DNA of 16,701 bases from a virus, in UHGV virus genome UHGV-1600828; one strand, written 5' to 3'. The translations under genes and the position numbers were made by a program. A model generated the notes under the pieces. That model did no database searches. It was not told the DNA's origin and saw only the letters and a program-made list of their open reading frames with translations. Below are positions 369 to 16,669 of this stretch, piece by piece. Every line of letters starts with the position of its first letter. Position 1 is the first letter of the stretch.

Positions 369-517
369 CGGCTGAATACCTCACTGATCGCTTCTTTGAC
401 TGCGCCAGTTACTGGCGCATTAATCCTTTCGAATTGCTGAATATGCCGATCAGTGAAATTCCCTTGCTGGTCAGTCAGGCAAACAGGATAGAGCAGGAGA
501 AACGCACACATGGCTGA
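335..517 (+). CDS. -1 frame extension of the tail assembly chaperone (predicted fusion product 99..517 via slip at 350-356)
   Basis: Open -1 frame from the slippery site to TGA at 515-517. Its own ATG at 335 has no convincing RBS, so independent translation is unlikely. Arrangement mirrors lambda G/GT and P2 E/E'. Confidence 0.55.
   Translation: MACGRFFPPGLTAEYLTDRFFDCASYWRINPFELLNMPISEIPLLVSQANRIEQEKRTHG
350..356 (+). other. Candidate -1 programmed ribosomal frameshift site T_TTT_TTC
   Basis: Zero-frame codons GGT TTT TTC (348-356) contain a canonical X_XXY_YYZ heptamer. The -1 frame is exactly the frame of ORF 335..517, which ends at 517 overlapping the tape measure start at 510. Confidence 0.6.
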
Positions 518-2342
518 ATTTGAGCTTAAGGCGTTGATCACCGGTGTCGACAGACTTTCTCCCGCGCTGTCGAAAATGCAAAAGAAAATCCGGGGATTTA
601 AACGCCAGGCGGAAGAAGCATCACAGGGTGGGCTGGCGCTTGGTGGCGGACTGGCAGCGGGTCTGACGCTTTCCCTGAAATCTTATGCCGATCAGGAAAA
701 CGCCGCCACCGGGCTGAAAGTCGCCATGATGGATGCGAACGGCGAGGTCGGAAAGAGCTTTCAGGACATCAATAAACTGGCTATTGGCCTGGGTAACCAG
801 CTACCCGGTACAACGGCTGATTTCCAGAACATGATGCAGATGCTGGTGCGTCAGGGGATCCCGGCAGAAAATATTCTTGGCGGTGTGGGTAAAGCGACAG
901 CTTATCTTGCGGTACAACTGAAAAAAACACCGGAAGCGGCTGCTGAGTTTGCTGCAAAGATGCAGGATGCTACCGGAACGGCGTCAGAAGACATGATGGG
1001 GCTGTTCGACACTATCCAGAAGGCGTTTTATCTGGGCGTTGACGATACCAACATGTTGTCCTTCTTCACTAAAACCAGTTCTGTTCTGAAGATGGTGAAC
1101 AAGGACGGTCTTCAGGCTGCACAGAGCCTTGCCCCCATCAGCGTCATGATGGATCAGATGGGGATGAACGGGGAGTCGGCAGGTAATGCCCTGCGAAAAG
1201 TTATCCAGTCCGGATTAAGCGTTAAGAAAATCAGGGACGTTAATAAAGTTATGGCCCGCCAGAAACTCGGGGTACAGCTCGATTTTACTGACGGCAAAGG
1301 GAGTTTTGGCGGTCTTGATAACATGTTCAGGCAACTGGCAAAGCTGCGAAAACTGACCGACGTTAAGCGAACCGGTGTACTTAAGGCAATATTTGGTGAT
1401 GATGCCGAAACCCTTCAGGTGGTCAATGCTCTGATCGATAAAGGAAAGGATGGTTACGATCAGATCCAGCAGAAGATGAATAAACAGGCCAGCCTGAATA
1501 AACGTGTTCAGGCCCAGCTTGGTACGCTGTCCAACCTGTGGGAGGCAATGACGGGGACCGCAACTAACGGCCTTGCGGCTATTGGCGGCGCATTTTCTGG
1601 TGACGTCAAAAATATCACGCAATGGCTGGGGGAGTTAGGGGAAAAATTCACGAAGTTTGCGGATGAAAATCCCCGGGTTATTCGCGGCGTCGTCGGGCTT
1701 GCTGCCGGTCTTGCGATTCTGAAACTGGGATTGATGGGCGTGGGCAGTGCCATCAGTATCGTCAGCAGGATCATGTCGATGACGCCGATTGGCATGATTG
1801 CGACGGCGATTGCCCTGGCTGCGGGATTAATTATCACTAACTGGGATGTTGTCGGACCTTATTTTAAGAAGCTCTGGGAAACCATTAGTCCTTATTTTGA
1901 GGCTGGCTGGGAACTTCTGAAGAAGGTTTTTGCCTGGTCGCCGCTGGGGATGGTGATCAATAACTGGGGACCGGTTGTTAAGTGGTTTCAGGATATGTGG
2001 GATAAGCTGAAGCCGATTATTGAATGGTTTACCGACAGTTCCGGTGACACGGTCGATGCCATTAACTCGGCGCAGTGGGGCGCGGGTGCTTATGATGCTT
2101 ATGGGACGGGAATACCGCCACGGGGATACACTCCTTATCCGGAGGTGGATCCGGCTCAGGCAAACAACGCCTCCGGTGCCACAGGTCCGAATCCCTTCAT
2201 GATTAATAAAGCTACCGCGCCAAAAGTTGATGGTGAGATCAAGGTATCATTTATAAATATGCCACCAGGTATGCGGGTTACGGAAACACGCTCCAGTGGC
2301 ATTGATATAAATCACGATGTTGGCTATACCCGATTTTGGTAG
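510..2342 (+). CDS. Phage tail tape measure protein, 610 aa
   Basis: ATG at 510 with AGGAGA upstream. Long Gly/Ala-rich protein with a hydrophobic segment (…GVVGLAAGLAILKLGLMGVGSAISIV…). Sits between the chaperone/frameshift gene and the baseplate genes. Confidence 0.85.
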   Translation: MAEFELKALITGVDRLSPALSKMQKKIRGFKRQAEEASQGGLALGGGLAAGLTLSLKSYADQENAATGLKVAMMDANGEVGKSFQDINKLAIGLGNQLPGTTADFQNMMQMLVRQGIPAENILGGVGKATAYLAVQLKKTPEAAAEFAAKMQDATGTASEDMMGLFDTIQKAFYLGVDDTNMLSFFTKTSSVLKMVNKDGLQAAQSLAPISVMMDQMGMNGESAGNALRKVIQSGLSVKKIRDVNKVMARQKLGVQLDFTDGKGSFGGLDNMFRQLAKLRKLTDVKRTGVLKAIFGDDAETLQVVNALIDKGKDGYDQIQQKMNKQASLNKRVQAQLGTLSNLWEAMTGTATNGLAAIGGAFSGDVKNITQWLGELGEKFTKFADENPRVIRGVVGLAAGLAILKLGLMGVGSAISIVSRIMSMTPIGMIATAIALAAGLIITNWDVVGPYFKKLWETISPYFEAGWELLKKVFAWSPLGMVINNWGPVVKWFQDMWDKLKPIIEWFTDSSGDTVDAINSAQWGAGAYDAYGTGIPPRGYTPYPEVDPAQANNASGATGPNPFMINKATAPKVDGEIKVSFINMPPGMRVTETRSSGIDINHDVGYTRFW

Positions 2343-2370
2343 CCAGGATTCCCCTCACAGGTATTGCTGG

Positions 2371-2398
2371 TTGTAAGTCATAAATAGAGTGATAGAAT
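2371..2398 (+). promoter_or_regulatory. Candidate sigma70-type promoter for the moron (TTGTAA -16 nt- TAGAAT)
   Basis: -35-like TTGTAA at 2371-2376 and -10-like TAGAAT at 2393-2398 with a 16-nt spacer, in the AT-rich gap after the tape measure stop. Pattern match only. Confidence 0.3.
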
Positions 2399-2433
2399 TA
2401 ATGCACATTTAGAAAAATGTTAATAGGCGAAAA

Positions 2434-2964
2434 ATGAAAGGCTATATCACAGCAAGTGTAATTCTTGGAGCAGCGGCTATTTTTTCATCTCTCATAATCT
2501 CTGGCAACATCTCCTTTAAAGATGAACATATTATTCAGTTATCTGGAGGAGCCATAAAACTTGGTGATGTTTATAAAGAAAATAAATTGATAAGTGCAAA
2601 GATTATTTTTCCAGATAATCAGGGTGAACAGATTCTTGTTGTCGACGGCAATCCTGAAAACTTTAAGGAGGATTTTCAGGAGAAATTAAATAAAGTAATA
2701 AAAACTTTAAATGCGTCAAAGAAAAAAGATGAAGAGAAAGTTAGCCTGGATAATTTAAGTGTTATTGAAGAGTCTAAACTAGAGCTCGTTTCTGCGGTGC
2801 GTTACTCTGCTCAGTATGTTCCTATGTTTACTCTGACGCTGGACAAAAAAGAAATTACCATGCCTAAAAATACGGTAATATTTCCATTTGCCAGCGATGA
2901 AACAGCTAAGTATTTAAATGAACAACAGCAAAAGTATAAAGATTCGTTGTTTCTGACTCGCTAA
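2434..2964 (+). CDS. Moron-encoded membrane-anchored or secreted protein of unknown function, 176 aa
   Basis: AT-rich ORF inserted between GC-rich tail genes. N-terminal hydrophobic stretch (MKGYITASVILGAAAIFSSLIISG) followed by a Lys/Glu-rich body. Has its own promoter-like and terminator-like signals. No recognisable catalytic motif. Confidence 0.6.
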   Translation: MKGYITASVILGAAAIFSSLIISGNISFKDEHIIQLSGGAIKLGDVYKENKLISAKIIFPDNQGEQILVVDGNPENFKEDFQEKLNKVIKTLNASKKKDEEKVSLDNLSVIEESKLELVSAVRYSAQYVPMFTLTLDKKEITMPKNTVIFPFASDETAKYLNEQQQKYKDSLFLTR

Positions 2965-2983
2965 TTAATAAAATTCATTACAA

Positions 2984-3010
2984 GGCCACCTTCTAATAGG
3001 TGGCTTTTTA
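2984..3010 (+). terminator. Rho-independent terminator-like hairpin after the moron
   Basis: Stem GCCACC (2985-2990) / GGTGGC (2999-3004), 8-nt loop, then TTTTT (3005-3009). Confidence 0.6.
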
Positions 3011-3025
3011 ATTTTCGGAGTATAT

Positions 3026-4354
3026 ATGACGTGGAAAGACAGGCTTCAGGACGCGTCATTTCGCGGCGTGCCGTTTAAGGTTGAAGAAGAAAGTGCGGGA
3101 ACCGGTCGCCGTGTGGAAACACATGAATACCCGAACCGCGACAAACCCTATACCGAAGACCTGGGGAAAATCACTTTTCGCCCGTCCATCACGGCTTATG
3201 TGGTGGGAGATGACTGCTTTGACCAGCGCGATCGCCTGATTGAAGCGCTGAATAAACCAGGTCCCGGCACGCTTGTCCACCCGACATATGGTGAGCTGAA
3301 AGTCTGTGTTGACGGGGAAGTTCGGGTCAGCACATCGAAAAGTGAAGGGCGTATTGTCCGCTTTGACCTGAAGTTTGTCGAAGCAGGAGAACTCTCTTAC
3401 CCCACATCAGGTGCGGCGACGGCGCAGACGCTGATGTCATCCTGTTCTGCACTGGATGACTGCATCAGTGACAGCTTCAGCGGTTTCAGTATCGATGGTG
3501 TGGCGGATTTCGTGCAGAACGACGTTATCGGTAATGCCAGCATAATGCTGGGGTATGTTTCTGATGCGATGAAAGTGGTGGATTCTGCCGTATCGGATGC
3601 CGCCAGGCTGTTGCAGGGGGATATCTCGGTACTTCTGCCGCCGCCATCGTCAGGCAAAAATTTCGTTGAGCAGGTGCAGAAAATGTGGCGTACCGGGAAA
3701 CGCCTTTATGGTAACGCCAGCGACCTGGTCACCATGATCAAAACGCTTTCTGGTGTCAGCCTCGGCAGCGATTTGCAACCGCGCGGCGTCTGGAAAACGG
3801 ACAGTAAAACCACCGCCACAGCGACGCAGCAGCGTAACATGGTTGCCAGCACCCTTCGTACGACTGCAATCAGCGAAGCGGCGTATGCCGTTACCCGATT
3901 GCCTGCGCCAACAACTTCTGCGGTGATGCAGAATGCCGCAGTGGGGCAGTCAACAACACCCGCGCAGAGCTCCGGCTGGCCTGCCGTCACGCATCCGGTG
4001 CTGAACAATGCACCGGCGGTGAAAAACACGGTTGACCTGCCAACGTGGGAAGAACTGACCGACATTCGCGACACACTGAATACGGCAATTGATAAGGAGT
4101 TGTCCCGTACAACCAGTGATGCGCTGTTTCTGGCTCTGCGCCGGGTGAAAGCAGATCTGAATGCGGATATCAACACGCGCCTTGAACAGTCTGCTCGGAT
4201 CATTCAGCGCACGCCGGATGAGGTTTTACCCGCGCTGGTGCTGGCGGCGACCTGGTTTGATAACGCGGCGCGTGACGCGGACATTATCCGGCGTAATGCC
4301 ATTACGCATCCCGGCTTTGTGCCGGTAATCCCTCTGAAGGTGCCAGTGCAATGA
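3026..4354 (+). CDS. DNA circularization protein (Mu N/gp43-like), 442 aa
   Basis: ATG at 3026 with GGAG upstream. N-terminus (MTWKDRLQDASFRGVPFKVEEE…HEYP…) matches recalled Mu N-family N-terminal domain. Position after the tape measure; ATGA overlap with the next gene. Confidence 0.8.
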   Translation: MTWKDRLQDASFRGVPFKVEEESAGTGRRVETHEYPNRDKPYTEDLGKITFRPSITAYVVGDDCFDQRDRLIEALNKPGPGTLVHPTYGELKVCVDGEVRVSTSKSEGRIVRFDLKFVEAGELSYPTSGAATAQTLMSSCSALDDCISDSFSGFSIDGVADFVQNDVIGNASIMLGYVSDAMKVVDSAVSDAARLLQGDISVLLPPPSSGKNFVEQVQKMWRTGKRLYGNASDLVTMIKTLSGVSLGSDLQPRGVWKTDSKTTATATQQRNMVASTLRTTAISEAAYAVTRLPAPTTSAVMQNAAVGQSTTPAQSSGWPAVTHPVLNNAPAVKNTVDLPTWEELTDIRDTLNTAIDKELSRTTSDALFLALRRVKADLNADINTRLEQSARIIQRTPDEVLPALVLAATWFDNAARDADIIRRNAITHPGFVPVIPLKVPVQ

Positions 4355-8026: not shown

Positions 8027-8848
8027 ATGCATCGTATAGACACGAAAACCGCGCAGAAGGATAAGTTCGGCGCGGGTAAGAACGGTTTTACCCGTGGTAA
8101 CCCCCAGACCGGCACACCTGCCACCGATCTGGATGATGACTACTTTGACATGTTGCAGGAGGAACTTTGCAGTGTTGTGGAGGCATCCGGTGCCAGCCTA
8201 GAGAAGGGGCGGCATGACCAGCTGCTTACAGCGCTTCGTGCGCTGCTGTTAAGCCGCAAGAATCCGTTTGGCGATATCAAATCGGATGGCACGGTGAAAA
8301 CGGCTCTCGAAAACCTTGGTTTGGGAGAAGGTGCTCCAGCTATTGGCGTTCCGTTCTTCTGGCCGTCCGCCGCAATGCCAAATACTGTAATCGACAGTTG
8401 GTCCAGTATGGTGTTTTTGAAGTTCAACGGCGCGAAATTCTCTGCCACTGATTACCCTGTGCTGGCGAAAGTGTTTCCGGCGCTAGCATTACCTGACGCA
8501 CGGGGTGATTTCATTCGTATCTGGGATGATGGGCGCGGGATTGATGTCGGACGTACCCTACTTTCAGGGCAATCACACACAATTATGGATCATGCACACA
8601 ATATGGAATTGTGGACGGGGGACGGGCTTGCCGCAGGAAGTGCACGGGAAGGAGTAAACCCAGGAATACTGGCTACATACGGTGACGGGGGAATAGTTAA
8701 AACGGACGAACCCGGTCTTAAGGTGCCTTCCTCACTACGAGCTCTTAGCTCTCGTAGTGTTAAACGTTATGGTGAAATTAGTGGAAATGTAGATACAGAA
8801 ACCCGTCCACGAAATATTGCATTTAACTTTCTGGTGAGGGCTAAATAA
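8027..8848 (+). CDS. Tail fibre protein, 273 aa; constant N-terminal part (to ~aa 97) plus the currently expressed variable C-terminal part inside the invertible segment
   Basis: ATG at 8027. An invertase crossover site lies inside the coding sequence at 8304-8329 (…ALENLGLGE…). A silent alternative C-terminus on the minus strand shares the same GLGE junction. 1-nt overlap with the downstream assembly gene. Confidence 0.8.
8304..8329 (+). other. Left invertase crossover site (hix/gix/pix-like, 26 bp) inside the tail fibre gene
   Basis: CTCTCGAAAACC-TT-GGTTTGGGAGAA. Half-sites resemble the Hin-family TTCTC..AAAACC pattern around a 2-bp core (8316-8317). Its inverted partner is at 10177-10202. 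Confidence 0.6.
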
Positions 8849-9441
8849 TGATACCTGTTTTTGATGAAAATGGGCTGGCTACAGTGCCGGGCGATATGCG
8901 TTGTTTTTATTATAATGCAGTAACGTATGAATATACCGGCTGGTCTGATGAATATATTAATACTGGCGTAAGTATACCCGCCTGTTCCACTGGTATTGAC
9001 CCGGGCGAAAACATCCCGGGAAAAGTGGCAGTATTTACGGGTAAGGGATGGAGCCATGAAGAAGACCATCGCAATGAGACCGTTTACTCAACTGAAAATG
9101 GCGCAGCTGTTACAGTGGATTATATCGGTGCCATCAAAGACGGTTATGTCACGCTTTCACCGTTAACGCCATACGATAAATGGGATGGTGAGAAATGGGT
9201 GACGGATACCGAGGCACAGCATAGCGCCGCAGTAGAAGCGGCAGAAGCACAGCGCCAGTCGCTGATTGATGCTGCAATGGCTTCCATCAGTCTGATTCAA
9301 CTGAAATTACAGGCTGGGCGGAAGCTGACGCAGCCAGAAAACACCCGACTTAACGCTGTGCTGGATTACATTGACGCGGTGACGGCAACAGATACCAGCA
9401 CAGCGCCGGACGTCATCTGGCCTGAACTGCCGGAGGCGTAG
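8848..9441 (+). CDS. Tail fibre assembly protein (currently expressed copy), 197 aa
   Basis: 1-nt overlap with the fibre gene stop. Position and size typical of Tfa/Mu U-like chaperones. Confidence 0.75.
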   Translation: MIPVFDENGLATVPGDMRCFYYNAVTYEYTGWSDEYINTGVSIPACSTGIDPGENIPGKVAVFTGKGWSHEEDHRNETVYSTENGAAVTVDYIGAIKDGYVTLSPLTPYDKWDGEKWVTDTEAQHSAAVEAAEAQRQSLIDAAMASISLIQLKLQAGRKLTQPENTRLNAVLDYIDAVTATDTSTAPDVIWPELPEA

Positions 9442-9856
9442 ACCATTCAATATCTGGCGCACCGGAAGTATCGACCAGTTCCAGTGCGTCCAGATAATCC
9501 AGCCACAAATTATATTGCGCCAGTTCCTCACCTTTCAGACGACCAATTGATGCTTTACCTGGCCATTGTTTACTGTTTATGTATTCGTTGGCCTGGTTAA
9601 TCAATTGCTGCTTTTTAGTTTCGGCTGATGCAATTTGTTCTTCACGTGTTGGTGGAGGAATATCTGCCCATGCAGGCAGTCCATCCTCTCCGACACATCT
9701 GTATTTTCCTTCTGGTGGTGTATCATAGAAATATTCCCTGAAAATTACTTCGTCTATATCAACACCTTTTTCTTCAGGCCATTCACCTTTTTCAACATAA
9801 AGAGACTGAAGTTCGTAAGGATATGCCAGGTTGTTTACGTACAGATATTTCATCAT
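9413..9856 (-). CDS. Alternative tail fibre assembly protein (silent in this orientation), 147 aa
   Basis: Minus-strand ORF convergent with and overlapping the + strand assembly gene by 29 nt. Lies immediately downstream (minus sense) of the alternative fibre C-terminus. Confidence 0.7.
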   Translation of the reverse strand: MMKYLYVNNLAYPYELQSLYVEKGEWPEEKGVDIDEVIFREYFYDTPPEGKYRCVGEDGLPAWADIPPPTREEQIASAETKKQQLINQANEYINSKQWPGKASIGRLKGEELAQYNLWLDYLDALELVDTSGAPDIEWSTPPAVQAR

Positions 9857-10189
9857 TACCAGCCCTTAGCGAAAAACGCACCACCTTCAAGACCATAATT
9901 GCAGTGAGCTATGAAGCCGGTAGTGCTCCAGTTGGTCGCCCCCCACATATTCCCGCCCCCGAAACCACCATCGCACACAATTACAATGCCCGGTGTCTGT
10001 GTAAATGGAATCGGGAATGAAACATTGGCGGATACAGGCCCGTGTTCACCAGGAAAACTAATTCGTCCCCACTGTTCAATTGAACCATCTGGCATTTTTC
10101 GCCAGCCTGAACCTGATGCATATGATGACATATCAGGTATCTGATTTTCCCCTGTTCCCACATTCCGTTTTGCCGCTTCTCCCAAACCA
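9856..10189 (-). CDS. Alternative tail fibre variable C-terminal segment (promoterless and startless; expressed only after inversion)
   Basis: Minus-strand frame reads …[19 protein letters not shown]… through the right crossover site. The GLGE junction matches the + strand fibre at the left site. The ORF-track start at 10230 lies outside the segment and is probably not used. Confidence 0.65.
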
Positions 10190-10202
10190 ACGTTTATGAA
10201 AA
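10177..10202 (-). other. Right invertase crossover site (inverted partner of 8304-8329)
   Basis: Plus strand TTCTCCCAAACC-AA-CGTTTATGAAAA. Its reverse complement shares GGTTTGGGAGAA with the left site. About 55 bp upstream of the invertase start. Confidence 0.6.
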
Positions 10203-10256
10203 TGCAGAAATAACGAGCAAATGGCATCATTCCTGCTTTTGTCAGGGAGATCCACC

Positions 10257-10811
10257 ATGCTTATTGGCTATGTACGCGTATCAACAAATGACCAGAACAC
10301 CGATCTACAACGTAATGCGTTGAACTGTGTAGGATGTGAACTGATTTTTGAAGACAAGATAAGCGGTACGAAGTCCGAAAGGCCCGGACTGAAAAAACTG
10401 CTCAGGACATTATCGGCAGGTGACACTCTGGTTGTCTGGAAGCTGGACAGGTTAGGGCGCAGTATGCGGCATCTTGTTACGCTGATAGAAGAGTTGCGCC
10501 AGCGTGGCGTGAATTTCCGAAGCCTGACTGACAGTATTGATACCAGTACCCCAATGGGCCGTTTCTTTTTTCATGTCATGGGTGCCCTGGCTGAAATGGA
10601 ACGAGAACTGATTGTTGAACGAACAAAAGCTGGACTGGAAGCTGCTCGCGCACAGGGACGAATTGGTGGACGTCGTCCCAAACTTACACCAGAACAATGG
10701 GCGCAGGCCGGGCGATTAATTGCATCAGGCGTTCCTCGCCAGAAGGTGGCGATCATCTATGATGTTGGTATATCGACACTGTATAAGAAGTTTCCGGTCG
10801 GAGATAAATGA
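10257..10811 (+). CDS. Site-specific DNA invertase, serine recombinase of the Hin/Gin/Pin/Cin family, 184 aa
   Basis: ATG at 10257 preceded by GGGAGA. N-terminus [18 protein letters not shown] with catalytic Ser in VRVSTNDQ, and a C-terminal helix-turn-helix region (…GRRPKLT…STLYKK…) match recalled Gin/Hin sequences. ORF-track start at 10221 adds 12 unlikely residues. Confidence 0.9.
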
Positions 10812-10850
10812 AACCGTAGCACGTCGTATGCAAGAAGATCGTGCTGCGGT
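10793..10850 (+). repeat. Imperfect direct repeat copy 1 (invertase 3' end plus downstream hairpin)
   Basis: …CCGGTCGG…GAAACCGTAGCACGTCGTATGCAAGAAGATCGTGCTGCGG. Contains a dyad CCGTAGCACG / CGTGCTGCGG. Similar to 11820-11870 at roughly 80% by eye, with indels. Confidence 0.55.
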
Positions 10851-10871
10851 TTATGCTTATCACTTAAAGAC

Positions 10872-11741
<870 letters not shown>

Positions 11742-11819
11742 CTAACCCTTTGAATTTACATAGCGCAAAAAGATACCTTTCCTCATAATGTGAGCTAATT
11801 TTATGTTTCGTTTGATGAT

Positions 11820-11870
11820 CGGGTCGGTCTCGAAACCCGTAGCCACGTCATATGCAAGAACGTGCTACGA
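11820..11870 (+). repeat. Imperfect direct repeat copy 2 (partner of 10793-10850), upstream of the GIY-YIG gene
   Basis: …CGGGTCGG…GAAACCCGTAGCCACGTCATATGCAAGAACGTGCTACGA, with the same dyad and central TATGCAAGAA as copy 1. Confidence 0.55.
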
Positions 11871-12884: not shown

Positions 12885-14351
12885 GTGAAAAAAATCAGTG
12901 ACGAACAAATTAATATCGAGGCTCAATCAGGATATAGACCATGGACTATAGATTCTGGTATCGGATTGCTTCCCTTTTCAGAATTAGGTGATCGAGAATT
13001 TGAGTTGCTATGTTATTTGTTAGTAAAGAACGAAATTGAAGATGGAAAGCATAAAAATATATCCTCAATATCTTTAATGCAAGGAGTTTCTGAAAGAGGA
13101 CGCGACTGCGTGCTATACCATAACGGTGTTGTAAGTGGTTTAATACAATGTAAAAAAATGCAAGGTAGAATAACTAGACCGCAAGCATTAAGAGAAATAA
13201 TTAAATTTTTATTGTTTTCCATTATTGATAATAGTTTGCTTCCCGCTCCTGATTGTTTCGAATATAAGTTGTATGTATCAAATGACATCGCTGAAACTAC
13301 AAACTCACTAATTCATTCTTACTCAACCGAAGTTGAGGTGGAAATAAAGTCTGATACTATCAGTAAGTATATAAAAGATGTTGTATCTGAATACGAGTCA
13401 TTCAAAATTTTTGAAAACAGCCTACCAATTAGTAAAGTTATTGATCTTTTGAGACGGATAAATGTAACCGCATCAAATGCAACAGATTTAACCTTGCGAG
13501 TTCATAAGTATGATTCATTGTTATCATTGTTTTTTAATGTAAAAACTGTAATCGACTTAGAATCTGCAGATAAAGTTATACGTAACGCGCTTGATGACTA
13601 TGGTTTAAAATACTTGACCGATGAAGACTTAAAACAACTTCAAATTCGCATTTCAAATACTAAAGAAGAAAATCGAATAAATTTAGGTTTTGTGGATTTC
13701 TTTGGTTATAACAAAGAGTTTTTTAAATCCTTGAAAGGCGAGCCATTTAAACAAGTGATAGAAGCGGTTGCGTCGGTAACATTATCATTAGATAAGTATT
13801 TAATGGAATTCATAAATAGTAAAATCAATGAGCTAGTTTTTGAAAACGTCACAATAAAATTATTAAATCCAGGGAGGATTCACCCTTTCAGTGTGGGCGT
13901 GGTGGCACCTTACCTATTTCAGAGACTGTCCATTAAAGTCGTCTCAAGAAAGTTGCCAACAGAGTTAGTCACCAAATTTTATGAACAAGCATCTCTGTCC
14001 AAAAAGGAATTAATCGACTCGATAGCAATACAGCTCTTTGAAACAAGCGAAAGAGTTATGAAAGGAGATTTCAGTCAGTTAGTGGGAAATCCAGAAGACA
14101 TACAGTTTAAAAAGAGAATATTCACTCATATACATAATGGATTCAACAGTATAGAAGATGCAAAAACTACTTTTTCTCGAGACATCCAGATTATAATGCC
14201 AACATTAGATTTTATAGAAGAAAAAATAGGTGAGCTATTACAAGAAGAGCGTACTGTGGTAATAAAAGACGCCTCTTTTTTGGATAATGATGATGAGATT
14301 AAGAAAATAGCAAAAACGCTGAGTATGATCGAACCCAATCCAGGCGCATAG
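12885..14351 (+). CDS. 488-aa protein: N-terminal Mrr/restriction-endonuclease-like (PD-(D/E)xK-type) motif plus large uncharacterised C-terminal domain; candidate defence protein
   Basis: GTG start at 12885 with AAGGAGA RBS 6 nt upstream. N-terminal …REFELLCYLL…GVSERGRDCVL…GLIQCKKM… resembles the recalled Mrr-catalytic pattern (E … D … QxK). Remaining ~380 aa are Lys/Glu/Ile-rich with no motif recognised. Confidence 0.7.
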   Translation: MKKISDEQINIEAQSGYRPWTIDSGIGLLPFSELGDREFELLCYLLVKNEIEDGKHKNISSISLMQGVSERGRDCVLYHNGVVSGLIQCKKMQGRITRPQALREIIKFLLFSIIDNSLLPAPDCFEYKLYVSNDIAETTNSLIHSYSTEVEVEIKSDTISKYIKDVVSEYESFKIFENSLPISKVIDLLRRINVTASNATDLTLRVHKYDSLLSLFFNVKTVIDLESADKVIRNALDDYGLKYLTDEDLKQLQIRISNTKEENRINLGFVDFFGYNKEFFKSLKGEPFKQVIEAVASVTLSLDKYLMEFINSKINELVFENVTIKLLNPGRIHPFSVGVVAPYLFQRLSIKVVSRKLPTELVTKFYEQASLSKKELIDSIAIQLFETSERVMKGDFSQLVGNPEDIQFKKRIFTHIHNGFNSIEDAKTTFSRDIQIIMPTLDFIEEKIGELLQEERTVVIKDASFLDNDDEIKKIAKTLSMIEPNPGA

Positions 14352-15254: not shown

Positions 15255-16241
15255 ATGGCTACTGCAGAGCAGATCAAAGCTTTATTGAAAAGCCACGTTG
15301 ATCGTGATGATCAGCGTTTCTTTTCTATTGCTTTGCAGGTGGCAGCTAAGGAAGCAAGGCAAGGTCATCATAAGCTTGCTAATGATATAAAAAACTTAGT
15401 TGATAAAAATCAGAAAACAACGAGTTCTGTAGGTTTAGTTGAAAAACGACTTACACCATTTGTTAAGCAGCCTGATGGTGATCTTAAGGGGTTACTTGAG
15501 CAAACGAACAAGCCAGTACATCTTCAAGATCTGGTGATTTCTGGAAGCGTTAGGGAAAGATTGAATCAGGTTCTGCTTGAACAAAAACAGAAAGATAAAC
15601 TTTCTGAGTTTGGGCTTATTCCAAGAAGAAAAATTCTTTTCACTGGTCCTCCCGGTACTGGTAAGACAATGTCCGCATCAGTCATTGCTACAGAGTTAAA
15701 GCTACCACTTTATACAGTCGTCTTAGATAATCTAATCACTCGCTATATGGGTGAAACTGCAGCTAAGCTGCGTTTAATTTTTGACCACATACGGCAAACA
15801 AGAGCTGTATATTTTTTTGACGAGTTCGATGCTATAGGAACTCAGCGTGGCGCTCAGAATGACGTTGGAGAAATTCGTAGGGTCTTAAATTCTTTTTTAA
15901 TGTTTGTAGAGCAGGATGATTCTGAGAGCATAGTTTTAGCTGCAACCAATCATCCAGAGCTTTTAGATCGCGCCTTATATAGACGATTTGACGATATTAT
16001 ACCGTTCACAAGGCCTGAGGATAATCTAATCAGGAATCTTATTGAACAGAGACTCGCTGTCTTTGACCTCGGTAATTTATTTTGGAGTGAGATCATTGAT
16101 AGTGCTTCAGGTCTAAGTGCAGCGGAGATCACGCGAGCAAGTGAAGATGCTGCCAAAGAATCAGTGCTTTATAATGCAAACAATATTACAACCGATTTGT
16201 TAGTAAAGGCTATAAAGCGTAGGCAAGAAAGTAGACAATAA
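15255..16241 (+). CDS. Classic-clade AAA+ ATPase, 328 aa
   Basis: Walker A GPPGTGKT, Walker B VYFFDEFD, sensor-1/second region of homology LAATNHPELLDRALYRRFD with an Arg-finger-like RR. ~120-aa N-terminal non-ATPase region. GAGGGG RBS-like upstream. Confidence 0.8.
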   Translation: MATAEQIKALLKSHVDRDDQRFFSIALQVAAKEARQGHHKLANDIKNLVDKNQKTTSSVGLVEKRLTPFVKQPDGDLKGLLEQTNKPVHLQDLVISGSVRERLNQVLLEQKQKDKLSEFGLIPRRKILFTGPPGTGKTMSASVIATELKLPLYTVVLDNLITRYMGETAAKLRLIFDHIRQTRAVYFFDEFDAIGTQRGAQNDVGEIRRVLNSFLMFVEQDDSESIVLAATNHPELLDRALYRRFDDIIPFTRPEDNLIRNLIEQRLAVFDLGNLFWSEIIDSASGLSAAEITRASEDAAKESVLYNANNITTDLLVKAIKRRQESRQ

Positions 16242-16249
16242 GGGATGAA

Positions 16250-16669
16250 ATGACTACCAACAAGAGGCATATTTTATTAAACGGCTATGTTTCCCCCGAA
16301 AACTATCGCTCTAGGAGCAATGGTCGTAGTCCCCAAGTCCCAGCTCGTGATCGAGCGGTACATGGTATATCATTACTAAATCAGTATAGCCGTATATTGA
16401 ATCATTATGATGAAAGACCGAGGCTTCCCCCTGTTACTGATGAAAAAGGGATTTATGTTAGGCTAATCAGTTTTGAACAATGCGATCTTCCTATAGATAA
16501 AATCGATAATACTTATTTCAAGCTTTGTTCTTTAGTTAAATCAAATAATCGTGAAACTGCGATTATATACATTAATGAAAATGACAGAACTAAATTCACT
16601 AAAAAAATAAATGACTATTTGAATCCATCGAAGGATGGTATCGAGTTTGACCTGCTCCCCGTTGATTAG
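16250..16669 (+). CDS. Hypothetical protein, 139 aa, co-operonic with the AAA+ ATPase
   Basis: ATG 8 nt after the ATPase stop with AAGGGA RBS, suggesting co-transcription and coupling. No recognisable motif. Its 3' end lies inside repeat copy B. Confidence 0.6.
   Translation: MTTNKRHILLNGYVSPENYRSRSNGRSPQVPARDRAVHGISLLNQYSRILNHYDERPRLPPVTDEKGIYVRLISFEQCDLPIDKIDNTYFKLCSLVKSNNRETAIIYINENDRTKFTKKINDYLNPSKDGIEFDLLPVD

What the first reader, a model, noticed from the sequence alone, without database searches (positions are those of the whole stretch)
2343..3010. AT-rich moron with own promoter-like and terminator-like signals between tape measure and DNA-circularization genes
In Mu-type tail modules these two genes are normally adjacent. 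Here a 176-aa ORF with visibly lower GC, a promoter-like TTGTAA/TAGAAT pair and a clean hairpin-plus-T-run terminator is inserted. The protein has an N-terminal hydrophobic anchor or signal and a charged body, which is typical of lysogenic-conversion or superinfection-exclusion morons. The terminator sits inside the late tail operon, so downstream tail genes need read-through or a separate promoter.
Basis: partly seen in the sequence, partly recalled or inferred. Interest (0 to 1): 0.55.

Follow-up and report, generated by a model that had tools for sequence, protein, structure and literature searches.

The report
Envelope-protein moron in prophage tail operon
A small, AT-rich extra gene wedged between two tail genes of an E. 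coli prophage is a genuine mobile "moron" that encodes an uncharacterised membrane-anchored, periplasm-facing protein, most plausibly used to keep other phages out; this is a common kind of prophage cargo, and its function has not been tested.

Summary
Window 2343-3010 is a 668-bp cassette of 34% GC, against 52-54% in the flanks. It carries one 176-aa ORF (2434-2964), a sigma-70-like site (2371-2398) and a strong hairpin plus T-run (2982-3016). It sits between the tape-measure and DNA-circularization genes of an SfV-like prophage.

SfV and about 57% of sampled comparable E. coli loci have only a 45-60 bp spacer at this position. About 22% carry this cassette and about 22% carry other low-GC cargo genes, mostly envelope proteins. 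The slot is therefore a cargo hotspot.

The protein belongs to an uncharacterised family (PHROG 5485, no Pfam). It has an N-terminal membrane helix predicted N-in/C-out and a roughly 150-aa alpha/beta periplasmic domain. The AF2 model is confident (pLDDT 90.7) and matches no solved structure.

Relatives sit in the same slot in prophages of five genera. Others lie in the Q-holin slot of a lambdoid prophage and in small integrative islands. A remote relative is a lipoprotein of a virulent Pseudomonas phage. This excludes a tail structural role.

Moron status is well supported. A superinfection-exclusion role is inferred, not shown. The terminator is not special to the moron, because empty sites carry one too. 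This is a new member of a known kind, of modest interest.

The parts
510..2342 (+). Tail tape measure gene (left flank of the slot)
   Evidence: ORF. Annotated as tape measure in SfV and in E. coli genomes. Orthologues carry Pfam PhageMin_Tail.
2343..3010 (+). Moron cassette: AT-rich insert relative to empty-site relatives
   Evidence: GC profile. Junction alignments to SfV and to an E. coli empty site. No match to any deposited phage.
2371..2398 (+). Sigma-70 promoter-like site TTGTAA-16-TAGAAT with TG extension (candidate moron promoter)
   Evidence: 9 of 12 matches plus TG, but the number of such sites is not above chance. The position is roughly conserved in an alignment with Leclercia and Lelliottia upstream regions. 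Function not shown.
2425..2429 (+). Shine-Dalgarno-like AGGCG. Its AGG core lies 6 nt upstream of the ATG.
   Evidence: Read directly from the sequence.
2434..2964 (+). 176-aa ORF X, member of PHROG 5485. Residues 5-23 (nt 2446-2502) form the membrane helix and residues 24-176 (nt 2503-2961) the predicted periplasmic alpha/beta domain.
   Evidence: phrog_5485, E 3.8e-108, full length. 78 representative clusters at E <= 0.001, of which about 60 are full-length. AF2 pLDDT 90.7. Topology statistics.
2982..3016 (+). Intrinsic-terminator-like hairpin (2982-3007) plus T-run
   Evidence: (-17.3 kcal/mol, z -4.8). An equivalent hairpin is present in all orthologous and alternative cassettes and in empty sites.
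3026..4354 (+). DNA circularization (Mu N-like) gene, right flank. Its conserved CGGAGT.TAT ribosome-binding region (3010-3025) marks the right recombination boundary.

Best explanation
The cassette is an autonomous accessory gene (a moron) carried in a cargo hotspot of SfV-like prophages, between the tape-measure and DNA-circularization genes.

Its product is a bitopic inner-membrane protein. A short positively charged N-terminus stays in the cytoplasm, one helix (residues 5-23) spans the membrane, and a roughly 150-residue alpha/beta domain faces the periplasm.

The most likely role is protection of the lysogen at the envelope, by interfering with the periplasmic or inner-membrane stage of genome delivery by other phages. 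This would be superinfection exclusion of the kind shown for HK97 gp15, P1 Sim and T4 Sp/Imm. It is probably transcribed from its own promoter in the repressed prophage, and certainly also as part of the antiterminated late transcript during lytic growth. It ends at its own intrinsic terminator.

Shown here: the insert status, the hotspot, the mobility between slots, the real and conserved protein family, and the single N-terminal hydrophobic helix with N-in charge bias.

Inferred: periplasmic location, promoter activity in the lysogen, and the anti-phage function.
For: Insert status. The cassette is absent from SfV-type isolated phages and from all deposited phages. It is present in 179 of 5,426 E. 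coli genomes.

Hotspot. A sample taken evenly down the hit list gave 46 loci with both flanks. Of these, 26 were empty, 10 carried X and 10 carried other cargo. The other cargo comprises:
- a 164-aa signal-peptide protein;
- a 225-aa lipoprotein;
- membrane-anchored OB-fold proteins on the opposite strand;
- a PH-domain protein.
All have 31-42% GC.

Mobility. Relatives of 33-53% identity occupy the same slot in Citrobacter, Leclercia, Edwardsiella and Lonsdalea prophages. A 32% relative sits in the classical Q-holin moron slot of a lambdoid Citrobacter prophage. Relatives of 23% identity lie in small integrative islands next to other exported proteins. A Lelliottia copy survives alone beside icd, together with a remnant of the tape-measure 3' end.

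Spread within E. coli. In 80 IMG/VR loci the cassette is less diverged (median 99.8%) than its flanks (97.2% and 96.3%).

Divergence between genera. X diverges faster (41-56% identity) than DNA circularization, gpP, gp45 and baseplate J (65-83%). It does not track the tape-measure type.

Protein. 60 of 61 members have one N-terminal hydrophobic helix and no second one. The N flank is more positive than the C flank in 58 of 61. The AF2 model is confident.

Remote relative. A probable remote homologue in the virulent Pseudomonas phage ventosus replaces the helix with an LLTGC lipobox, so the domain is again envelope-tethered. Its presence in a virulent phage argues for a phage-centred rather than a host-physiology role.

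Other cargo in the same prophage includes the known defence genes PD-T4-3 and IetA.

Precedent. HK97 gp15 is a tail-operon moron encoding an inner-membrane exclusion protein (PMC3594210).
Against: There are no expression data.

The promoter-like site is not above chance by count. Comparable sites are not found by the same scan upstream of the Leclercia, Lonsdalea or lambdoid Citrobacter copies. DNA of 34% GC in E. coli is typically silenced by H-NS (own knowledge).

The N-terminal segment could instead be a cleaved signal peptide. The protein would then be soluble in the periplasm rather than anchored.

Envelope-targeted morons also include serum-resistance, adhesion and immunity functions, which the data do not exclude.
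Confidence: 0.45

Rival explanations
1. Lysogenic-conversion or fitness factor unrelated to phages. The periplasm-facing protein would alter envelope physiology. Examples are serum or stress resistance as with lambda Bor, or orphan immunity against a periplasm-acting toxin such as a colicin M-type bacteriocin or a T6SS effector.
For: The predicted location and size are those of many periplasmic immunity and conversion proteins (own knowledge). The hotspot collects exported proteins of several unrelated folds. A Lelliottia copy is retained after the prophage decayed. In SfV itself the other cargo region holds gtr O-antigen conversion genes.
Against: A probable remote homologue occurs in a virulent phage that never lysogenises. 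Apart from the Lelliottia copy, a prophage remnant beside icd, every family member examined lies on a phage or a small integrative island. There is no similarity to any known immunity or conversion family.
Confidence: 0.25
2. Lytic-cycle accessory of the carrier phage. The gene would be expressed only with the late tail operon. It could protect infected cells from secondary adsorption or lysis from without, prevent progeny from injecting into debris, or assist periplasmic steps of its own entry or exit.
For: The gene is co-oriented with and embedded in the late operon in every SfV-like locus. The promoter is not reliably conserved. The remote homologue is in a virulent phage. In the lambdoid prophage the relative lies directly downstream of Q, where transcription is late.
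Against: The gene is dispensable for the phage type, since most relatives and all isolated SfV-like phages lack it. Copies on integrative islands and the Lelliottia remnant have no lytic cycle to serve. The Lelliottia copy has its own promoter-like site and terminator.
Confidence: 0.2
3. Tail structural or assembly component, for example a chaperone or baseplate accessory specific to this tape-measure type.
For: Its position is inside the tail module, on the same strand, in five genera.
Against: About 57% of sampled E. coli loci with both flanks, and SfV, SfI, SfII and SfIV, have no gene here. The same slot carries unrelated genes, some on the opposite strand. Near-identical X (85%) goes with tape measures only 41% identical. 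Family members lie outside tail modules. A membrane anchor is not expected for a cytoplasmically assembled tail part.
Confidence: 0.04
4. Non-functional hitch-hiking DNA: an AT-rich remnant with a chance ORF.
For: No function or known domain was found.
Against: There are 78 representative clusters at E <= 0.001. Apart from about 18 fragments of 34-139 aa, they have conserved length (166-286 aa) and motifs. The AF2 model has pLDDT 90.7. The ORF is intact and over 99% conserved in about 180 E. coli genomes and 80 viral contigs.
Confidence: 0.03

Closest known systems
HK97 gene 15 moron (gp15 superinfection exclusion protein; Juhala et al. 2000; Cumby et al. 2012; PMC3594210)
   Same: A single extra gene inside a tail operon next to the tape-measure gene, with its own promoter and terminator signals and deviating GC. 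The product is a small single-pass inner-membrane protein. It is the founding example of the moron concept.
   Different: The slot differs (tail chaperone | tape measure in a siphovirus, against tape measure | DNA circularization in a contractile-tail phage). gp15 is a YebO-family protein described in PMC3594210 as a small inner-membrane protein, and from my own knowledge it has essentially no ectodomain. X has a 150-aa periplasmic domain and no YebO or other Pfam match. Exclusion has been shown for gp15 and not for X.
Periplasm-acting exclusion proteins of myoviruses: P1 Sim and T4 Sp/Imm (own knowledge; SIE review PMC11436027)
   Same: Small exported or membrane-anchored proteins that block a step between adsorption and DNA entry. 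This is the mechanism proposed for X.
   Different: No sequence or fold similarity was detected. These proteins are encoded elsewhere in their genomes. The comparison is functional analogy only.
Phage lipoprotein exclusion factors: T5 Llp, phi80/N15 Cor, lambda Bor (own knowledge; PMC3594210)
   Same: Envelope-tethered products of accessory phage genes. One alternative occupant of this same slot is a lipoprotein, and the remote ventosus homologue of X is a lipoprotein.
   Different: X has no Cys and no lipobox. No sequence similarity.
PHROG 5485 / 34391 (unknown function)
   Same: X matches phrog_5485 end to end (E 3.8e-108) and phrog_34391 over residues 1-106. This is the family it belongs to.
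   Different: The PHROG carries no annotation. The wider family, its topology, fold model and genomic slots described here are not in that entry.
Cargo hotspots of P2-like phages and P4-like satellites (Rousset et al. 2022, cited in PMC10884400; moron positions of P2-like phages, PMC3573123)
   Same: A fixed intergenic position in a conserved phage module that holds interchangeable, low-GC accessory genes, many of them defensive.
   Different: The phage group and position differ. Cargo here is dominated by single small exported proteins rather than by recognised multi-gene defence systems.

Membership tests
Moron (Juhala et al. 2000; definition restated in PMC3594210) | Extra DNA relative to otherwise collinear related phages | tested here: met
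   SfV has 45 bp and an E. coli empty site 60 bp where the window has 683 bp. In a sample, 26 of 46 loci with both flanks were empty.
Moron (Juhala et al. 2000; definition restated in PMC3594210) | Base composition different from surrounding genes | tested here: met
   GC 0.343 against 0.52 and 0.54. GC3 0.30 against 0.56 and 0.60. Orthologues in other genera are also 35-37% GC, so low GC is a stable property of the gene and not only a sign of recent arrival.
Moron (Juhala et al. 2000; definition restated in PMC3594210) | Own promoter | tested here: inconclusive
   TTGTAA-16-TAGAAT plus TG lies at 2371-2398, but the count of such sites equals the chance expectation. The position is roughly conserved. 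The same scan finds none upstream of the Leclercia, Lonsdalea or lambdoid Citrobacter copies.
Moron (Juhala et al. 2000; definition restated in PMC3594210) | Own terminator | tested here: met
   The hairpin plus T-run has z -4.8. Each same-strand cassette carries a different hairpin sequence at the same place. A group II intron has inserted directly after the orthologous terminator in L019. Caveat: empty sites also have a terminator-like hairpin.
Moron (Juhala et al. 2000; definition restated in PMC3594210) | Expressed from the repressed prophage | not testable with these tools
   Needs transcriptome or 5'-end data from a lysogen. No paper mentioning the protein was found.
PHROG 5485 | Full-length match to the family profile | tested here: met
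   E 3.8e-108, residues 1-176 on profile positions 1-176.
HK97 gp15 / YebO family | Sequence match to the YebO profile (Pfam) | tested here: not met
   Zero Pfam families at E <= 10. None of 61 family members matches it. That Pfam holds a YebO model is from my own knowledge.
T4 Imm / Sp, and defence systems catalogued in PADLOC 2.0 | Sequence match to the respective profiles | tested here: not met
   No Pfam, NCBIfam or PADLOC match. PHROGs gives only families of unknown function, plus a weak 'endonuclease' hit at E 0.014 that I disregard.
Phage lipoprotein exclusion factors (Llp, Cor, Bor) | Lipobox with invariant Cys after the signal sequence | tested here: not met
   No cysteine in X. 43 of the 61 members have no Cys, and none has a lipobox after the helix.
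Tail structural or assembly protein of the SfV/Mu-type tail | Present in all phages with this tail module and confined to it | tested here: not met
   Absent from SfV, SfI, SfII, SfIV and from most E. coli loci. Present after Q in a lambdoid prophage and on integrative islands.
Superinfection exclusion proteins (functional class) | Envelope location | tested here: inconclusive
   One N-terminal hydrophobic helix with an N-in charge bias in 58 of 61 members. The AF2 model has helix 2-23 followed by a globular domain. This is a prediction only, and a cleavable signal peptide is not excluded.
Superinfection exclusion proteins (functional class) | Blocks infection after adsorption without repressor immunity | not testable with these tools
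   Requires plating, adsorption and DNA-entry assays.

The most novel reading that the evidence does not exclude
X is the founding member of a previously unrecognised, widespread family of periplasm-facing anti-phage proteins. The fold has no solved relative and the membrane tether is interchangeable (transmembrane helix or lipid anchor). The family would block genome delivery by contractile-tail or other phages. The tape-measure | DNA-circularization junction of SfV-like prophages would then be a dedicated hotspot for such envelope-level exclusion genes.
Probability: 0.25. Interest if true: 0.6.

Novelty: new member of a known kind. Interest (0 to 1): 0.38.

Why it matters
Morons are a main route by which prophages change their hosts, yet most encode proteins of unknown function. 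This one is common, occurring in about 3% of complete E. coli genomes, including ETEC H10407. It belongs to a family found across Enterobacterales prophages, islands in marine gammaproteobacteria and a virulent Pseudomonas phage, and it has a confident predicted fold with no solved relative.

The work also defines a cargo hotspot in a very common prophage type. About 20% of complete E. coli genomes carry one or both flanking sequences. The interchangeable occupants are mostly exported proteins, which gives a ready-made candidate list for envelope-level phage exclusion or lysogenic conversion.

If the protein is an exclusion factor, it would affect phage-therapy host-range prediction for E. coli. 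If not, it remains one more uncharacterised accessory gene.

Tried and rejected
Searches that found nothing useful:
- Pfam, NCBIfam and PADLOC gave nothing for X. Pfam gave nothing consistent for 61 family members.
- A PDB sequence-profile search returned only noise.
- Foldseek against afdb50 was unavailable.
- blastn and tblastn of the cassette against 50,697 phage records found no match. The same held for the lambdoid-slot relative P0126.
- tblastn against plasmids found only phage-sized, non-mobilizable E. coli records. There were no conjugative plasmids, so an entry-exclusion link was dropped.
- The search for related loci with the deep alignment failed for lack of conserved stretches. The genome-contig scan with the shallow alignment returned a single Edwardsiella locus.
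- Literature searches for WP_000679479, phrog_5485 and a tape-measure/DNA-circulation hotspot found nothing specific.
- Rfam on the cassette gave only sub-threshold attenuator-like hits that reflect the terminator hairpin.

Ideas rejected:
- Tail structural component (see the membership test).
- Lipoprotein, because X has no Cys.
- Nuclease, because the only support is phrog_15137 at E 0.014.
- Tai or Tab tail-assembly blockers, which as I understand them are cytoplasmic proteins encoded elsewhere. No similarity was seen and X is predicted to be exported.
- SNIPE-type membrane nuclease, for which X has no nuclease domain.
- The alternative cargo genes as diverged homologues of X. The profile search was negative.
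Full report
**What is in the sequence**

The window is the tail half of an SfV/SfI/SfII-like prophage of E. coli, with a Mu-type contractile tail. It aligns at about 97% to those Shigella phages over the tail genes.

Between the tape-measure gene (510-2342) and the DNA-circularization gene (3026-4354) lie 683 bp. These hold a single ORF, 2434-2964, of 176 aa. No other ORF of at least 50 aa lies on either strand.

GC drops to 0.33-0.35 across the insert, from 0.48-0.55 on either side. The gene has GC 0.343 and GC3 0.30, against GC3 of 0.56 and 0.60 in its neighbours.

It reads TTGTAA, 16 nt, TAGAAT, and is preceded by TG. The scan finds three such sites in 1.8 kb against 2.9 expected, so this match is not evidence on its own. 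An AGG lies 6 nt upstream of the ATG.

The hairpin at 2982-3007, followed by TTTTTAATTTT, folds at -17.3 kcal/mol. Its z-score is -4.8, and none of 200 shuffles folds as well.

**It is an insert, and the site is a hotspot**

SfV has 45 bp between the two genes as annotated in its record. An E. coli empty site has 60 bp. Homology between filled and empty sites ends at the tape-measure stop codon and resumes in the T-run and the CGGAGT.TAT ribosome-binding region of the next gene.

The cassette has no match in 50,697 deposited phage genomes, by blastn or by tblastn.

Among 5,426 complete E. coli genomes, 1,092 have one or both flanking sequences and 179 carry the cassette. Identity of the cassette is at least 99% in all records but one.

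I sampled 60 rows evenly down that hit list, and 46 had both flanks:
- 26 were empty (581-bp span), including the sampled O157:H7 strains.
- 10 carried this cassette.
- 10 carried something else.

I retrieved five of the alternative loci. They hold these occupants:
- a 125-aa PH-domain protein;
- a 164-aa protein with a cleavable-looking signal peptide;
- a 225-aa lipoprotein with an LLGGC lipobox;
- two OB-fold proteins on the opposite strand, the 148-aa form having an N-terminal membrane helix.

All have 31-42% GC, and none is related to X. The junction is therefore a cargo hotspot, and most of its occupants are exported proteins.

**The terminator is a property of the site, not of the moron**

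Every same-strand cassette ends in a GC-rich hairpin plus T-run directly before CGGAGT.TAT-ATG, although the hairpin sequences differ between cassettes. Empty sites have one too (CCCACTCCGGTGGGATTTTTT). The opposite-strand OB-fold cassettes place a hairpin immediately after the tape-measure stop codon.

A terminator-like structure therefore separates these two tail genes in every configuration. Read-through is a general need of this phage group. It is presumably met by the Q antiterminator, which these phages encode (SfIV: PMC3851460). That Q-modified polymerase ignores intrinsic terminators is established lambdoid biology.

One Citrobacter locus gives an independent hint that the hairpin is a genuine terminator motif. 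A group II intron starts (GTGCGCC) directly after the T-run of the orthologous hairpin. From my own knowledge, this is the habit of terminator-homing class C introns.

**The protein family**

X matches PHROG 5485 (unknown function) end to end, and nothing in Pfam, NCBIfam or PADLOC.

A word-indexed search found only about 25 relatives. An exhaustive profile search found 78 representative clusters at E <= 0.001. About 60 of them are full-length, mostly 166-203 aa, and the rest are fragments. None of 61 members has a consistent Pfam domain.

Named members come from E. coli, Citrobacter, Leclercia, Lelliottia, Edwardsiella, Mangrovibacter and Lonsdalea. More distantly, they come from Alkanindiges and marine Pseudomonas-like genomes.

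Sixty of 61 members have one N-terminal hydrophobic helix and no second one. The N-terminal flank carries mean net charge +2, and the 15 residues after the helix carry -0.7. The N side is the more positive in 58 of 61, which by the positive-inside rule predicts N-in, C-out. X has no cysteine, so it is not a lipoprotein. I could not exclude signal-peptidase cleavage after ISG (residues 22-24). In either case the body would be periplasmic.

With 15 sequences the AF2 model was poor (pLDDT 63.8). With 61 sequences it reached pLDDT 90.7, with these elements:
- helix 2-23;
- a beta-hairpin at 33-42;
- strands 46-58 and 67-72;
- helix 74-93;
- strands 114-126 and 132-143;
- helix 149-171.

The only convincing structural neighbour was in BFVD: a "lipoprotein" of the virulent Pseudomonas phage ventosus (E 1.8e-6, probability 1.0, TM-score 0.55/0.65). 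I located it as CNR37_00111. It has an LLTGC lipobox, the family's ...II.T....V..G.V..E motif after the anchor, and the family's FSYLK-type C-terminus. hhalign against the family gives 66% probability, E 5.6e-5. I treat it as a probable remote homologue whose tether is a lipid rather than a helix.

**Where the family lives**

Relatives sit in exactly the tape-measure | X | DNA-circularization slot in several genera:
- Citrobacter (51-52% identity);
- Leclercia (53%);
- Edwardsiella (41%);
- Lonsdalea (33%), where X is followed by two more small genes before the terminator.

The family is not tied to tails:
- A 32% relative in Citrobacter lies between the Q antiterminator and the holin of a lambdoid prophage, the classical moron position.
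- Relatives of 23% identity lie on small integrative islands (serine recombinase, or integrase plus DUF5906 primase), next to other exported or membrane proteins.
- A Lelliottia copy stands alone beside icd, still preceded by a remnant of the tape-measure 3' end. It has its own promoter-like site and terminator.

In 80 IMG/VR contigs that carry the E. coli-type gene, all 77 loci with both flanks present carry the expected flanking genes, directly adjacent in 74. The other three are cut by a contig end. The cassette is less diverged (median 99.8%) than its flanks (97.2% and 96.3%), as expected if it spread recently by recombination across already diverged backbones.

Between genera the reverse holds. 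X is 41-56% identical, while DNA circularization, gpP, gp45 and baseplate J are 65-83% identical. X does not track the tape-measure type: Leclercia L002 and contig L008 share 85% X but only 41% tape measure.

Orthologues in all these hosts keep 35-37% GC. Low GC is therefore a stable trait of the gene, not simply a timestamp of arrival.

**Interpretation**

These data meet the structural criteria for a moron as restated in PMC3594210: extra DNA, deviant composition, and its own terminator. The promoter criterion is inconclusive and lysogen expression is untestable here. The data exclude a structural tail role.

For mechanism I commit to an envelope-level anti-phage (superinfection exclusion) function. 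I give it about 0.4 on its own, and 0.45 for the combined statement as worded in the best explanation. The reasons are:
- the predicted periplasm-facing, membrane-tethered architecture;
- restriction of the family to phages and small mobile islands;
- a probable homologue in a virulent phage, which argues against a pure host-fitness role;
- faster divergence than neighbouring genes;
- a slot populated by other exported proteins;
- known defence genes (PD-T4-3, IetA) elsewhere in this prophage;
- the precedent of HK97 gp15, a tail-operon moron that encodes an inner-membrane exclusion protein.

None of this is direct evidence. The rivals are a phage-unrelated conversion or immunity factor, and a late-expressed lytic accessory. 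Both remain live, and I score them at 0.25 and 0.2.

**Comparison with what is known**

X works like, at most, HK97 gp15, P1 Sim or T4 Sp. It is not a member of any of those families, because no sequence or fold match was found. It is a member of PHROG 5485.

The hotspot resembles the moron positions of P2-like phages (PMC3573123) and the P2/P4 defence hotspots, but in a different phage group. I found no paper that mentions the protein or the hotspot, though the library is incomplete.

**Verdict**

It is a new member of a well-known kind of element, carrying an uncharacterised but apparently widespread envelope protein. The interest is modest. The most useful products are the definition of the family and of the cargo hotspot, both of which are directly testable.

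Noticed in passing
window 10872-11696 (- strand): A 273-aa GIY-YIG protein matches the PADLOC model for the anti-phage system PD-T4-3 (E 2.8e-140) and Pfam LEM-3_GIY-YIG. It sits just past the invertible tail-fibre segment, where SfV carries its gtr O-antigen genes.
   Followed up: partly
window 15255-16241 (+) and 16250-16669 (+): A 328-aa AAA ATPase matches IetA of the IetAS defence system (PADLOC E 5.5e-77). The next ORF is only 139 aa and matches nothing, so the expected IetS protease partner is not evident within the window.
   Followed up: partly
window 12885-14351 (+): A 488-aa ORF lies in a region of about 32% GC with no Pfam or PADLOC match. It is another unexplained low-GC cargo gene near the prophage end.
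   Followed up: partly
window 8027-10811: Invertible tail-fibre module. It has a Pin-like serine invertase (10221-10811), tail-fibre assembly genes on both strands (8848-9441 +, 9413-9856 -) and a gp53-like fibre C-terminus on the minus strand (9856-10230). This implies host-range switching by inversion.
   Followed up: no
E. coli loci L023-L027 (the slot equivalent to window 2343-3010): The same intergenic slot holds at least five other cargo genes in other E. coli strains: a PH-domain protein, a signal-peptide protein, a lipoprotein, and two OB-fold proteins on the opposite strand. All are low in GC, and each has its own hairpin terminator.
   Followed up: yes
L019 8567-10480 (Citrobacter prophage): A group II intron is inserted immediately after the T-run of the terminator of the X orthologue, before the DNA-circularization gene. 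Rfam finds D1-D4 and D5/6 elements, the ORFs carry RVT_1 plus GIIM, and the 5' end reads GTGCGCC.
   Followed up: yes
L002-L006, L008 (Leclercia-type prophages), about 10013-11820: Two extra genes (503-520 aa and 94 aa, no Pfam match) lie between the DNA-circularization gene and the gpP baseplate gene. They suggest a second cargo slot in this tail module.
   Followed up: no
Plasmid records CP088862.1 (35.4 kb), NZ_CP081716.1 (37.7 kb), NZ_CP148394.1 (19 kb), NZ_CP146678.1 (64 kb): The X gene occurs on phage-sized, non-mobilizable 'plasmids' of E. coli assemblies. These may be excised circular copies of the carrier prophage, which would mean it is active.
   Followed up: no
window 510-2342 compared with L002/L020: The tape-measure gene is mosaic. 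Two types only about 38% identical are combined with otherwise 65-83% identical downstream tail genes. This indicates recombination at or near the cargo slot.
   Followed up: partly
L007 7880-8000 (Lelliottia chromosome, downstream of icd): A stand-alone copy of the family is preceded by a short remnant resembling the 3' end of a tape-measure gene. A DinI gene lies about 7 kb away. It appears to be the last survivor of a decayed prophage at the icd attachment region.
   Followed up: partly
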